DNA of 64,000 nucleotides from NCBI RefSeq assembly GCF_018350175.1, contig NC_058377.1:21142001-21206000 (forward strand), in the 5' to 3' direction. Position 1 is the first letter of the stretch; every line of letters begins with the position of its first letter. The position numbers and the translations under genes were made by a program. This DNA is from Felis catus (taxonomy: Eukaryota). The notes below the pieces were generated by a model, which was given only the letters and a program-made list of their open reading frames with translations, had not been told where the DNA came from and searched no databases. Positions 60,137 to 63,710 of the stretch are shown one piece after another.

Positions 60137-60292
60137 AATTAAGCATATGACTGTCATACTACCCAGCGATTCCACTAGAAGGTATTTATTCAAAATAAAT
60201 GAAATATATGCCCTGATAAAGACATGACACAAAAAAATTCACACAAGCTTTATCTGTAATAGTCCCAAACTAGAAACAACCCAAATACCCAT

Positions 60293-60729
60293 TGTGGGTA
60301 AGTAGATTCTACTTACATAAATGGGTTAGAAAAAAGCTTAGGGCAGAAAGCTACCACCACAGGGCAAAAGCGCCCCATGCTAGGTAGCGAGATATTGGTA
60401 GTGAGGTAATGGGATCATGAGTAAAATCACTTTCCATCTGATACCAATGTGCTTTGAGTACAAACTCCACTTGCTCCCTAGACCCTTTGCTTCTTTGCAT
60501 ACACAAGTTAATGATTACTGTCTGATTGTTTTCTCCACGTTCATGTGTGTAAGATCTTGTTTTCTTCACATTCACCACGTGGGTAATATCTTGTGAGCTC
60601 AATAAATACGGACACAAAACCCTTGTTTGGGACTCTTGTCTCCTCCCTGACATTAGCCTCTCTCATAGTAAATTCTGCATCTGTTCTCTTGCTGGACAAG
60701 AGAGAAGTCCAGACTCATAGTCTGTGCCA
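60293..60729 (+). mobile_element. 5' LTR of a class II (betaretrovirus-like) ERV
   Basis: Begins TG where the L1M sequence stops and ends CA 2 nt before a PBS; AATAAATA (60601-60608) and AGTAAA (60667-60672) resemble the HERV-K TATA-like box and the MMTV poly(A) signal; 437 bp. Confidence 0.8.
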
Positions 60730-60731
60730 GA

Positions 60732-60749
60732 TGGTGACCCTAATGTGAT
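60732..60749 (+). promoter_or_regulatory. Primer-binding site complementary to tRNA-Trp
   Basis: TGGTGACCCTAATGTGAT versus the tRNA-Trp(CCA) complement TGGTGACCCCGACGTGAT: 15/18 identical, all 3 mismatches at CpG positions. Confidence 0.85.
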
Positions 60750-61215
60750 AGAAGGCAACGTGAAGCAGATATGATAGAAGGTGAGGTGGCTAGAAGAAAT
60801 GCCAACGTGACTAAGAAGTTGATGTGACAGAAGAGGTTGTGATTAGAAGCGGATGTGGCTGAGAAGGTGACGTGGCTAGAGGCCAATATGACTAGGAGCC
60901 AACGTGGCTAAAGAAGCCTACATGACTAGAAGTGGATGTGGCAGGGGCCCTTGGGTGGCGCAGTCGGTTGAGCGTCCGACTTCAGCCAGGTCGCGATCTC
61001 GCGGTCCGTGAGTTCGAGCCTGGCGTCAGGCTCTGGGCTGATGGCTCAGAGCCTGGAGCCTGGAGCCTGTTTCCGGTTCTGTGTCTCCCTCTCTCTCTGC
61101 CCCTCCCCCGTTCATGCTCTGTCTCTCTCTGTCCCCAAAATAAATAAACGTTGAAAAAAAAAAAAAAAAGAAAAAGAAGTGGATGTGGCTAAGAAGCCCA
61201 TGTAACTCAAGGACT
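60741..61215 (+). repeat. Degenerate ~16-bp minisatellite in the ERV leader (consensus ~CCGACGTGRCTAGAAG)
   Basis: About 14 units mostly ending in GAAG; split by a SINE insertion. Confidence 0.85.
60944..61174 (+). mobile_element. Cat-type Can-SINE inside the ERV leader
   Basis: TSD agaagtggatgtggc at 60928-60942 and 61175-61189; internal duplication gcctggagcctggagcc. Confidence 0.97.
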
Positions 61216-61348: not shown

Positions 61349-61964
61349 ATAGGAGACTCCCTATCTCTAGAACAAGAACAATACATTCATATAGCACTCC
61401 TTAAATTATTAATAATTAGGGGCGCCTGGGTGGTGCAGTCGGTTAAGCATCCGACTTCAGCCAGGTCACGATCTCGCGGTCCGGGAGTTCGAGCCCTGCG
61501 TCGGGCTCTGGGCTGATGGCTCAGAGCCTGGAGCCTGTTTCCGATTCTGTGTCTCCCTGTCTCTCTGCCCCTCCCCCGTTCATGCTCTGTCTCTCTCTGT
61601 CCCCAAAAATAAATAAACGTTGAAAAAAAATGTATTAATAATTATCCAGCAACATTACCCTTGGTTTCTCGAGCAAGGAACCTTCAACCTAGACATTTGG
61701 GAACAAATAGGTAAAACAATAAAGGCACGCCATACAGAAAGCACCAATGTGCTGCTTGAAGTTATTCTTACATGGTCTCTTGTCCATTTGGCTATTCTCC
61801 CCCTGAGTGCAGATGATGTTTATGAAGACATAGGCCCACTCAAAGTAAATAAAAAATTTTCCAAGGAACTTAAACCTCCTTATTGTCAGCCAGCCCCTTC
61901 GGCACCCCTACACCCAGAGAACGCTGACTCCCCCTGTGTCATTGGGGAAAATCTAACCTTTTAA
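61349..61964 (+). pseudogene. gag: ERV gag matrix (MA) remnant, betaretrovirus-like, split by a SINE
   Basis: Removing the SINE and one TSD gives an in-frame (M>I)GDSLSLEQEQYIHIALLKLLIIIQQHYPWFLEQGTFNLDIWEQIGKTIK, matching the class II MA motif PWF.E.G..L..W..VG; the start codon is ATA instead of ATG. Confidence 0.85.
61419..61632 (+). mobile_element. Young cat-type Can-SINE inside ERV gag
   Basis: TSD tattaataatta at 61407-61418 and 61633-61644. Confidence 0.97.
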
Positions 61965-62011
61965 AGGAACAAAAGATTCCCTTTGATGATGTCCTTACCA
62001 GGATGCTACAG

Positions 62012-62190
62012 CCTATTAAGAATGCCCTTACAGTGTTTACAGATGCCTTGGGGAAAACTCACAGGGCTTCTTGCCTTTGGAAAACTGGAAAAAACTGAGA
62101 ACATGTATTATACACTGGACTGGGTTCTACCCAACATTCAGAACTGTGAGCCATATTATTAGCTATAGAAATCTTTTCCCTACCCTTATT
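62012..62190 (+). pseudogene. pol: ERV pol RNase H remnant (class II)
   Basis: Frame from 62012 reads PIKNALTVFTDALGKTHRASCLWKTGKN*EHVLYTGLGSTQHSEL*AILLAIEIFSLPL (TVFTD and GSxQxxEL motifs). Confidence 0.8.
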
Positions 62191-63260
62191 GGCTCTGAGA
62201 TGTCAAGGAGCAAAGACCACCCACTTCAGATTTTCCCATCAGTATTCCAGGTAAAAGTTAACCACGGGGAACAAATTGTCAGGTGGACCCAAACGTAAGT
62301 TTGTTGGTTTGAAATAGACCTGTTTCTCAAAGGTCAAATAAGTTCATGTTATCTCTATTCCGATTCATTAGCAAAAGGATGACTTAAAGTAATGGTTAAC
62401 TTTGTCTCATAGTTTTCATGGGTAATTGTTAAGATAGCTTTAGTAACCTAAACAGTTTTGCTTGCATGACAAATTGGGATTGAATTCATTGGACATCTAG
62501 GCCTTTTCTAAATGGGATGGGATGCTAAAGCATTGATTAATAAACAAGGCTTATCTGCTTTTGGCTCTTTATTGCAGAGAAACTAAGGATATTTGGGTCT
62601 GGTGGTAAAGTAGCTTGGTGTTTTATATCTTTCTGAATTTTTTTTAAAACAAATTTTCCAAGATTTAAATTGTAAATGAAGTCTTTTTGACCAATTAAGC
62701 TTCTTTGGTATGTTAAGTTACTTCAGAAGTATTGTCAAACAAATAGTAAGTCTTAGGTTACATTGAGTAAATGCTCTAACTGTTCTAGAGATTATATGCA
62801 ATTCCTAGTTTTAATATTTTTTTGGTATAAGGTCATCACTTGATATTCTGAAGTGTTATGTGCCACAGAAATGACTGAATTTCCTTGTCAATTGCATTAG
62901 ATCTTTTAATTATGTCCATTTTTTACTCTTTTTGCCATAGTTCTGTGAGTCTTGTTGGAAGACTTCTTCACTGCTATACCTCTCAGTAGACAGGTGATTC
63001 TTTCTACTCAGGGATGCTCTGTTTCCCCTGAACTCTGTCTTTCCCTTTTGTAACTCCTCTATACCAACCCCAACTGAGCAATGTTGGCCCATAGGTAGGG
63101 ATCTCTCTATGCTCCTATTCAGCAGGAAGAAGTTACAGAAGAGAACACCATCCACCCTCAGCAACCTTAAATATTTTAAGGGTCAAAACTGTTCAGAGGG
63201 GGGATGATATGGGAAACAAAGGCAGAAGGAAATGGCAGATAAAATTAAATTTCCTTATAA
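62190..63260 (+). mobile_element. Class I (gamma-like) ERV 3' segment: AT-rich internal region, env end, PPT and U3 stub
   Basis: YAPIQQEEVTEE-type env tail at ~63110-63145, PPT AGAGGGGGGA (63195-63204), then an LTR start TGATATGGGAAACAAAGGCAG at 63205 that stops after ~55 bp; left boundary approximate. Confidence 0.65.
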
Positions 63261-63535
63261 TCCACAAGGCCATGCAATTGTAGAATGAGCACATAATAAA
63301 CTTAAAAATGTGTTAAAAAAACAAAAAAGGGGGAATTACCCATGGCTGTCTTCATTACAACCACAACTTCTCGATTGTGCTGTGATCATTCTTAACTTTT
63401 TAAATCTTTGACCCTCAAGTACTAACCACAGCCGAGCTACATTCTTTAAAATCAGATAAAACCTCAATATGCTTGTGTTCTTTCAGATTCCTGACTTCTG
63501 TGGATTCCCTCAGTTGGTGAAGCCGTATCATGACA
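63253..63535 (+). pseudogene. pol: ERV pol integrase remnant (class II)
   Basis: PYNPQGHAIVE*AHNKLKNVLKKQKRG...ILNFLN; later YACVLSDS*LLWIPS and, after a frameshift, LVKPYHD. Confidence 0.85.
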
Positions 63536-63559
63536 TGGTGGAGACCCCAGATACCTTTC

Positions 63560-63710
63560 AATCAACCAGGACTCTGAATGAGCAGCCACCACTCCCATTT
63601 TTCAAGATGGAAGAAACATCTCCATTGACTTCTCATCCTGAAGCCACTCCACAAATGCAAGTCCTTTCCCCTGATATAACACGGGGAAGCCTTAAACAAT
63701 TCTGACATTT
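63560..63710 (+). pseudogene. env: ERV env signal-peptide region remnant (class II)
   Basis: PDITRGSLKQF (63670-63702) resembles the class II env leader motif P..TWG.LK.L, with W>R. Confidence 0.5.

What the first reader, a model, noticed from the sequence alone, without database searches (positions are those of the whole stretch)
60741..61215. ERV leader is a minisatellite made from the 3' half of its own PBS
Seen: splitting at GAAG gives ~14 units (taatgtgata-gaag, cagatatgata-gaag, gtgaggtggcta-gaag, gtgacgtggcta-gagg, ccaacgtggctaaa-gaag, cctacatgacta-gaag and others). The consensus ~CCGACGTGRCTAGAAG closely matches the undecayed PBS 3' half plus the next bases (CCGACGTGAT-AGAAG), and the first unit overlaps the PBS itself. 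Inference: reverse-transcription slippage at the PBS amplified this motif. The array could act as a decoy for PBS-targeting repressors (KRAB zinc fingers, 3' tRNA fragments) or as a bZIP site array, since one unit is an exact UPRE/ATF6-XBP1-type TGACGTGG (60868-60875). Function is speculative.
Basis: partly seen in the sequence, partly recalled or inferred. Interest (0 to 1): 0.7.

Follow-up and report, generated by a model that had tools for sequence, protein, structure and literature searches.

The report
Primer-site repeats in cat retrovirus leader
In a family of old, broken retroviruses in what is likely a cat-family genome, the back half of the site where a tRNA starts DNA copying is repeated about 10-16 times in a row, likely through repeated copying slips of a kind seen once in HIV-1, with no sign yet that the repeats do anything.

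Summary
The array is real. Window 60741-61210 holds about 14 imperfect ~16-nt units matching nt 9-18 of a tRNA-Trp primer-binding site (PBS) plus the AGAAG that follows it (6 strict hits; shuffles average 0.38, maximum 3 in 2000). The element is an old, non-autonomous, beta-like (class II) ERV. The array is a family trait: 8 of 32 PBS-bearing copies carry 9-16 units, all inside one clade (100/99), and the rest carry 1-5. The arrays share a landmark, so they predate integration. They are polar: PBS-identical units lie near the PBS and diverged ones far from it (8 of 8, not independent). Two copies have lost the proximal units in register. Perfect recent repeats in three copies point to host-side expansion as well. 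A second Trp-primed LTR family has captured 1-2 whole PBS copies in U5. Closest precedent: the single 23-nt partial PBS duplication of HIV-1 MAL. The decoy and UPRE ideas are not supported. The scan earlier noted what is probably this family (e1-8621010) and a triplicated whole PBS in a gypsy element (e1-7360011), but not this array. Verdict: new variant of a known kind, probably near-neutral.

The parts
60293..60729 (+). 5' LTR (~437 nt) of a class II ERV family
   Evidence: Genome hits cover query 4-440 of window 60290-60942; 945 first-look candidates, 40 scored
60732..60749 (+). PBS complementary to host tRNA-Trp(CCA), both CpG sites decayed
60741..60942 (+). Array of imperfect ~16-nt units (PBS nt 9-18 + purine linker), part before the SINE; spacings of 11, 15-17 and 21-22 nt
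60792..60803 (+). Family landmark (long A-rich linker before a unit) shared by all 8 long arrays and 3 contracted copies
   Evidence: 11 of 32 copies
60868..60875 (+). TGACGTGG (UPRE-like, motif name recalled); incidental, at a CpG-decay position
   Evidence: 2 of 93 units in long arrays
60943..61189 (+). tRNA-derived carnivore SINE (identity recalled) with poly(A) and second copy of a 15-nt TSD (61175-61189), inserted into the array after integration
61190..61210 (+). End of the interrupted unit and the terminal unit of the array
61635..61820 (+). Remnant of beta-type gag matrix region (broken; a second SINE lies just upstream at about 61419-61641)
   Evidence: Pfam Gag_p10 E 5e-9; best PDB sequence hit 8c9m Gag E 2e-6, then beta-type matrix proteins
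61641..63698 (+). Deleted, non-coding internal region collinear with the other long-array-clade copies; no 3' LTR found for this copy in the rest of the window or the next 9.9 kb

Best explanation
The leader of this old, non-autonomous beta-like ERV family carries a tandem array of the 3' half of its tRNA-Trp primer-binding site plus the purine linker behind it, likely built by repeated template-switch slips of reverse transcriptase at the PBS end and likely without a selected function. Shown: unit = PBS nt 9-18 + linker; family-wide; 1-16 units; long arrays inside one clade with a shared landmark; PBS-identical units proximal, diverged units distal; in-register losses; recent perfect repeats in some copies. 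Inferred: nascent DNA that has copied part of the tRNA-occupied PBS, or strong-stop DNA ending in the PBS, re-anneals to a similar unit; slipping back adds units next to the PBS, slipping forward deletes them in register. The PBS is re-copied from tRNA each cycle while the units drift, which would give the gradient. Short, diverged units would escape efficient repeat deletion. After integration, host slippage occasionally re-expanded single units.
For: Specific match to PBS nt 9-16 and not nt 1-4 or 7-8 (match fractions 0.03-0.19; pooled 154 units of 32 rows; one row, L115, was mis-anchored). 114 of 154 units are preceded by at least 4 of 5 of the bases that follow the window PBS. Short-leader relatives already carry PBS-like units: 24 strict hits in 1337 nt of 22 copies against 1.1 expected, 17 of 22 with at least one. 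Tree built on sequence outside the array: all 8 long arrays in a 100/99 clade. Landmark in 11 of 32 copies, at +27 to +72 from the PBS end in 9 and at +1 in L038 and L047, where the PBS end replaces a unit in register. Polarity: AT-ending units 14/11/1 and G-type units 1/5/18 by thirds of 93 units; same direction in 8 of 8 arrays. A second Trp-primed family has duplicated LTR-end + whole PBS into U5: TSDs of 5-6 of 6 in 6 of 11 solo-type loci read by eye. Precedents: HIV-1 MAL 23-nt insertion from partial PBS duplication, 14% of isolates (PMC3185550, passages); multiple-PBS variants in culture (PMC1084362, passages); template switching gives deletions and duplications, and repeat deletion falls with length and divergence (PMC3187697, passages).
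Against: No direct test of reverse transcription was possible. The 8 arrays share descent, so polarity may be 1-3 events, and L039/L040 lie 38 kb apart. The tree has only 216 columns, 4 starred branches and a midpoint root, so growth rather than repeated loss is parsimony, not proof. The distal G-type unit is kept in the short-leader relatives, which could mean selection or a seed other than the PBS. Direct repeats are normally deleted in retroviral replication, so growth to 10-16 units is not the neutral default. Units show a CA excess over TG at PBS nt 10-11 (36 vs 15; PBS itself 3 vs 10) that plain CpG decay does not explain. Perfect repeats in L133, L066 and L034 show that host mechanisms make such repeats too.
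Confidence: 0.65

Rival explanations
1. Same origin, but the array was kept by selection because it helped this non-autonomous subfamily: as transcription-factor sites (ACGTG cores; bZIP or HIF type, motif names recalled), as extra dimerisation/packaging stems, or as weak landing sites that concentrate tRNA-Trp near the true PBS.
For: Long arrays are confined to the clade that also shares a subfamily-specific internal segment (window about 62647-63250, present in 10 of 10 clade copies fetched, in part for L136, and absent from 5 short-leader copies that align on both sides of it). Repeats grew against the usual deletion bias (PMC3187697, passages). G-type units are near-palindromic. The HIV-1 insertion changes PBS-domain structure and was proposed to add a factor site (PMC3185550, PMC7411029, passages).
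Against: Four members of the same clade have 58-98-nt leaders and were still copied and integrated. No stable fold: z -1.68 (window) and -0.46 (L033), in decayed copies. Exact UPRE-like 8-mer in 2 of 93 units, no full CRE.
Confidence: 0.15
2. The seed was an older PBS-like motif already present downstream (the G-type unit of short leaders); the array grew from that motif and only looks PBS-derived because in-register recombination with the PBS homogenised the proximal units.
For: Short-leader subfamilies with a 20-30-nt non-repeat spacer carry 1-3 G-type units. Distal units match only PBS nt 9-16.
Against: An 8-nt match within about 60 nt of the PBS is unlikely by chance (24 strict hits vs 1.1 expected, one or few events); another short-leader group has a unit directly behind the PBS (L041, L116, L120, L122). 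The practical difference from the best explanation is small.
Confidence: 0.1
3. An ordinary host minisatellite: each array expanded in the chromosome after insertion.
For: L133 has 8 identical 17-nt units plus partial ends with CpG obs/exp 1.14 against 0.13 in the next 2 kb; L066 and L034 have perfect adjacent duplicates, in L066 sharing decay-type letters.
Against: 5 of 8 long arrays plus the window and L003 show no perfect adjacent duplicate of 14 nt or more (7 of 8 in all); landmark and unit order are shared between insertions on different contigs.
Confidence: 0.04
4. Decoy for PBS-directed repressors (KRAB zinc fingers, 3' tRNA fragments).
For: 3' tRFs and some KRAB-ZFPs do target ERV PBSs (PMC7472051, passages). 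A-ending units pair with the 5' end of an 18-nt Trp tRF.
Against: Best unit duplex -14 to -17 kcal/mol, including the CpG-intact L133 unit, against -28 to -40 for a PBS. tRF3a action is highly mismatch-sensitive irrespective of seed (PMC7472051) and 5' UTR repression was seed-independent (PMC12853362; passages). Extra KRAB-ZFP sites in cis would recruit silencing rather than divert it (established TRIM28 biology, recalled). I know no Trp-PBS-binding ZFP in felids; not tested.
Confidence: 0.03
5. The whole 16-nt unit is tRNA-derived: plus-strand read-through past m1A58 copied tRNA nt 58-53, so unit = tRNA-Trp complement 9-24.
For: One common linker (12 of 93 units) matches complement positions 19-24 at 4 of 6; chance of 4+/6 is about 0.04 for one event (my arithmetic).
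Against: Other common linkers (15 and 10 of 93) do not match in register; tRNA-complement 7-mers starting beyond nt 13 score 0-3 in the window array, apart from two CpG-rich 7-mers at positions 48-49 that score 6.
Confidence: 0.03

Closest known systems
HIV-1 MAL-type 23/24-nt insertion downstream of the PBS (subtype A1 in part, G, CRF01_AE, CRF02_AG, CRF22_01A1); PMC3185550 and PMC7411029, passages read
   Same: Partial duplication of the PBS directly downstream of it, followed by point changes, inherited by a viral lineage.
   Different: One extra copy in a lentivirus primed by tRNA-Lys3; here up to 16 copies in a tRNA-Trp-primed beta-like ERV, with a polarity gradient, in-register contractions and later host expansions. 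That the HIV insertion is the 3' part of the PBS is recalled; the passages say 'partial duplication'.
HIV-1 variants with multiple whole PBSs after forced primer switches (PMC1084362, passages read)
   Same: PBS duplication during replication; resembles the second felid family with 1-2 whole PBS copies inside U5.
   Different: Transient laboratory variants; here fixed in natural LTRs with TSDs. The window's array has half sites only.
Direct-repeat deletion and copy-number change by RT template switching (dynamic copy choice; PMC3187697, passages read)
   Same: Predicts precise in-register loss of units, as in L038 and L047.
   Different: Usually favours deletion; net growth to 10-16 units needs a local duplication bias or selection.
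Minisatellites born inside ERV/MaLR sequences (recalled; also scan note e1-9393207)
   Same: L133, L066 and L034 show host-side expansion of one unit.
   Different: The main array predates integration and its unit is the PBS half site.
Non-autonomous class II ERVs such as ETn (recalled; named in scan note e1-8621010)
   Same: About 3-3.7 kb from PBS to 3' LTR end, deleted coding region, beta-type gag remnant.
   Different: tRNA-Trp PBS and a PBS-derived array; the family's Dfam/Repbase name could not be looked up.

Membership tests
Class II (beta-like) ERV | LTR followed by an 18-nt PBS complementary to a host tRNA | tested here: met
Class II (beta-like) ERV | Beta-type matrix (Gag_p10) | tested here: met
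   Pfam PF02337 E 5e-9 above cut-off; PDB hits are beta-type Gag/matrix
Class II (beta-like) ERV | RT phylogeny with betaretroviruses | not tested
   No RT frame was recognised in the window copy; not sought in other copies
Class II (beta-like) ERV | Paired LTRs | tested here: met
   Met in 9 of 10 fetched clade copies; not found for the window copy, which is 3'-truncated
MAL-type partial PBS duplication | Insert directly downstream of the PBS made of part of the PBS | tested here: met
MAL-type partial PBS duplication | Present in the replicating genome (inherited by independent integrations) | tested here: met
   Shared landmark in 11 of 32 copies on several contigs
MAL-type partial PBS duplication | Single ~23-nt copy in HIV-1 with altered initiation-complex structure | tested here: not met
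   9-16 units of ~16 nt in a non-lentiviral ERV; works like it, is not a member
MAL-type partial PBS duplication | Generated by reverse transcriptase | not testable with these tools
   Inferred from position, polarity and precedent
Host minisatellite/VNTR | High unit identity detectable by TRF | tested here: not met
   Window: 2.4 copies, score 44; met only by L133
Host minisatellite/VNTR | Allelic length variation at the locus | not tested
   No read or contig data were laid on this locus
UPRE/CRE enhancer array | Exact bZIP site in most units and conserved across copies | tested here: not met
   2 of 93 units for the UPRE-like 8-mer, 0 full CRE; motifs recalled
3' tRF decoy | Pairing comparable to the true PBS | tested here: not met
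   About half the duplex energy

The most novel reading that the evidence does not exclude
The tRNA-refreshed PBS acts as a master copy that feeds a one-ended, growing repeat array: reverse transcriptase keeps adding half-PBS units at the PBS end and deleting them in register, and the non-autonomous subfamily kept 10-16 of them because they help recruit tRNA-Trp or packaging factors in competition with its helper virus. With the second family that moved whole PBS copies into U5, this would make the PBS a general, directional repeat generator in Trp-primed class II ERVs.
Probability: 0.15. Interest if true: 0.72.

Novelty: new variant of a known kind. Interest (0 to 1): 0.45.

Why it matters
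It gives a natural, multi-step record of errors at the PBS during reverse transcription, an event known so far mainly as a single insertion in some HIV-1 subtypes whose origin and benefit are debated. The proximal-to-distal gradient and the in-register contractions make testable predictions about where RT slips. It also shows how an ERV leader can seed host minisatellites. Practical weight is modest: the family is long dead and no function is shown.

Tried and rejected
UPRE/bZIP array and tRF/KRAB decoy: see rivals. RNA folding gave no clear structure. An exact search for an 11-nt G-type motif gave 241 genome matches against 395 for the control and was uninformative. The weighted unit rule is loose (4.8 hits per 200 nt of background), so significance rests on the strict rule; L115 was mis-anchored and left out of the short-leader and PBS counts (its 5 hits remain in the pooled 154); L129 was left out of the short-leader count because of a SINE; L052 and L123 were left out of the PBS-dinucleotide count for poor register. 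Row L032 in alignment A1 had wrong coordinates and was ignored. Searches crashed and were rerun. No 3' LTR for the window copy. One search lists 20 of 24 runs holding the stretch (14 with half of its words or more, 6 RNA rows with shares 0.10-0.43); none was laid, so they are no evidence of expression or of array stability. Literature: 10 searches (one search listed 30 of 86) found no description of a multi-unit half-PBS array in an ERV; the library lacks most subscription journals, and Dfam/Repbase, where this family is probably catalogued, were not available. PMC12323578, PMC12584738, PMC10924933 and PMC3832253 (passages only) did not bear on it; supplements were not opened.

Full report
Observation. 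The window region 60293-60729 is an LTR with at least several hundred look-alikes in the genome (945 first-look candidates, 40 scored). It is followed by an 18-nt PBS at 60732-60749. The genome's own tRNA-Trp(CCA) genes (6 of 6 non-ERV loci scanned) give a complement that the window PBS matches at all 18 positions once CpG decay is allowed. Behind it lie 12 further units before a SINE and one more after it, about 14 in all. The SINE has a 15-nt target-site duplication. Strict matches to PBS nt 10-16 number 6 in 193 nt, against 0.38 in 2000 shuffles (maximum 3) and at most 2 in 295 window tiles. The match is specific to the 3' half: pooled over 154 called units, PBS nt 1-4 and 7-8 match in 3-19%, nt 5-6 in 69-81% because the linker also reads GA there, nt 17 in 53% and nt 18 in 26%; nt 9-16 were selected on. 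TRF sees only 2.4 copies, so this is a degenerate array.

What the element is. The frame behind the leader hits Pfam Gag_p10 (E 5e-9) and beta-type Gag/matrix chains in the PDB, so this is a class II, beta-like ERV with a Trp PBS. The host is likely a felid (SINE type recalled; a feline label; scan notes). Nine of 10 fetched members of the window's clade have a 3' LTR ending 3.0-3.8 kb behind the PBS, with LTR-LTR K2P distances of 0.08-0.22 without CpG; with a recalled rate near 2e-9 per site per year that is roughly 20-55 million years, median about 30. The internal region is deleted and collinear among clade members, and a segment at about 62647-63250 is missing from 5 short-leader relatives that align on both sides of it. 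This agrees with scan note e1-8621010 on a chimeric non-autonomous family (that it is the same family is my inference). The window copy has no 3' LTR within reach.

The array across copies. From, 32 distinct PBS-bearing copies were scored (identical duplicates collapsed). Eight have 175-263 nt between PBS and the conserved downstream anchor, with 9-16 units; the others have 25-98 nt and 1-5 units (L115 was mis-anchored and is about 49 nt by eye). A tree on 216 columns outside the array puts all 8 long arrays, 4 short-leader copies and 4 PBS-less fragments in one clade (100/99; midpoint root, 16 of 33 inner branches open). A landmark linker occurs in 11 of 32 copies, all in that clade, and the central unit order aligns across insertions on different contigs (row L032 ignored). 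The array therefore existed in the replicating element. Even the short-leader copies carry PBS-like units (24 strict hits in 1337 nt of 22 copies, 1.1 expected), so the first duplication is older than the long-array clade.

Polarity and contraction. Among 93 units in the 8 long arrays, units ending like the PBS (AT at nt 17-18) number 14, 11 and 1 in the first, middle and last thirds; units with G at nt 17 number 1, 5 and 18; the direction holds in 8 of 8. The copies share descent, so the p-values overstate the case, and the window copy itself has only one called AT unit. In L038 and L047 the landmark sits 1 nt behind the PBS, where long arrays have it 27-72 nt away behind a unit: the PBS end stands in for that unit in register. 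This is what precise template-switch deletion predicts (PMC3187697, passages).

Host-side change. L133 has lost its PBS and carries 8 identical 17-nt units plus partial ends with CpG obs/exp 1.14, against 0.13 in the next 2 kb, although its flank is 13% from the window copy. That is most likely a recent expansion in the chromosome; an assembly artefact is not excluded. L066 and L034 have perfect adjacent duplicates. Seven of 8 long arrays, the window's included, have none, so host slippage is secondary.

A second family. One search also returned 14 loci of a different Trp-primed LTR family. Two have one PBS followed by internal sequence (L067, L084), one has two PBSs then internal sequence (L062), and 11 end soon after one or two PBS copies followed by a repeat of the LTR end; 6 of these 11 show 5-6 of 6 target-site matches (L065, L070, L074, L080, L081, L082), read by eye. 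Whole PBS copies have thus entered U5, as expected if a duplicated downstream PBS was used for priming (inferred). Scan note e1-7360011 reports a similar layout in a gypsy element (not checked).

Mechanism. Most likely (0.65), RT that has copied part of the tRNA-occupied PBS, or strong-stop DNA ending in it, re-anneals to a similar unit; backward slips add units next to the PBS and forward slips delete them. The PBS is restored from tRNA at each cycle (established retrovirology) while units drift, giving the gradient. Short, diverged repeats are deleted inefficiently (PMC3187697, passages). None of this was tested directly. Against it: the tree is weakly rooted, net growth runs against the usual deletion bias, the distal G-type unit is old and retained, and units show an unexplained CA excess at nt 10-11 (36 CA, 15 TG, 15 CG of 93; PBS 3, 10, 12 of 29).

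Function. The UPRE-like 8-mer occurs in 2 of 93 units and its T is at a CpG-decay position; no full CRE occurs (motifs recalled). Units pair with an 18- or 22-nt Trp 3' fragment at -14 to -17 kcal/mol at best, against -28 to -40 for a PBS; published tRF rules stress mismatch sensitivity and seed independence (PMC7472051, PMC12853362; passages). No stable fold was found in two decayed copies. Clade members with short leaders were still copied. Selection for a cis role remains possible (0.15). Expression and allelic variation at this locus are open, since no reads were laid.

Comparison with what is known. HIV-1 MAL and 14% of isolates carry a 23-nt insertion downstream of the PBS from a partial PBS duplication (PMC3185550, passages; subtype distribution in PMC7411029, passages), and multiple-PBS variants arise in culture (PMC1084362, passages). 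The felid array works like an iterated MAL insertion but is not one. Ten literature searches found no account of a many-unit half-PBS array; coverage is limited to the held library, repeat databases were not available, and no supplements were read.

Verdict. Real, family-wide, most likely a reverse-transcription by-product with later host expansion; a new variant of a known kind; interest 0.45.

Noticed in passing
L062, L063, L065, L068, L070, L074, L075, L078-L082 (PBS at 1501 on the matched strand): A second tRNA-Trp-primed LTR family whose LTRs contain one or two whole PBS copies near the 3' end, followed by a repeat of the LTR end; 6 of 11 solo-type loci show 5-6/6 TSDs.
   Followed up: partly
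L133:895-1060 (G000:C17 near 132317900): PBS-less copy with a perfect 17-nt array with intact CpGs; likely a young host minisatellite, candidate VNTR.
   Followed up: partly
window about 62647-63260: Segment that looks like the 3' end, polypurine tract and LTR start of a class I ERV (resemblance recalled) inside this class II element; shared by the long-array clade and absent from short-leader relatives.
   Followed up: partly
L145 and L147: Upstream 660 nt recur downstream at 99.4% and 97.6% identity, far more alike than other LTR pairs of the family; gene conversion or local duplication.
   Followed up: no
window 60928-60942; L129; L102; L044: SINE or other repeat insertions fall inside the purine-rich leader array in several copies; the linkers may be L1-endonuclease-friendly sites (inference).
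   Followed up: no
units of the 8 long arrays, PBS nt 10-11: CA outnumbers TG 36 to 15 in units but not in the PBS (3 to 10); possibly a G-to-A change fixed in the viral lineage.
   Followed up: no
L086-L088 (G000:C47), L041/L116/L117 (G000:C43), L127/L128: Identical or near-identical family copies in segmental duplications; collapsed or noted as non-independent.
   Followed up: no
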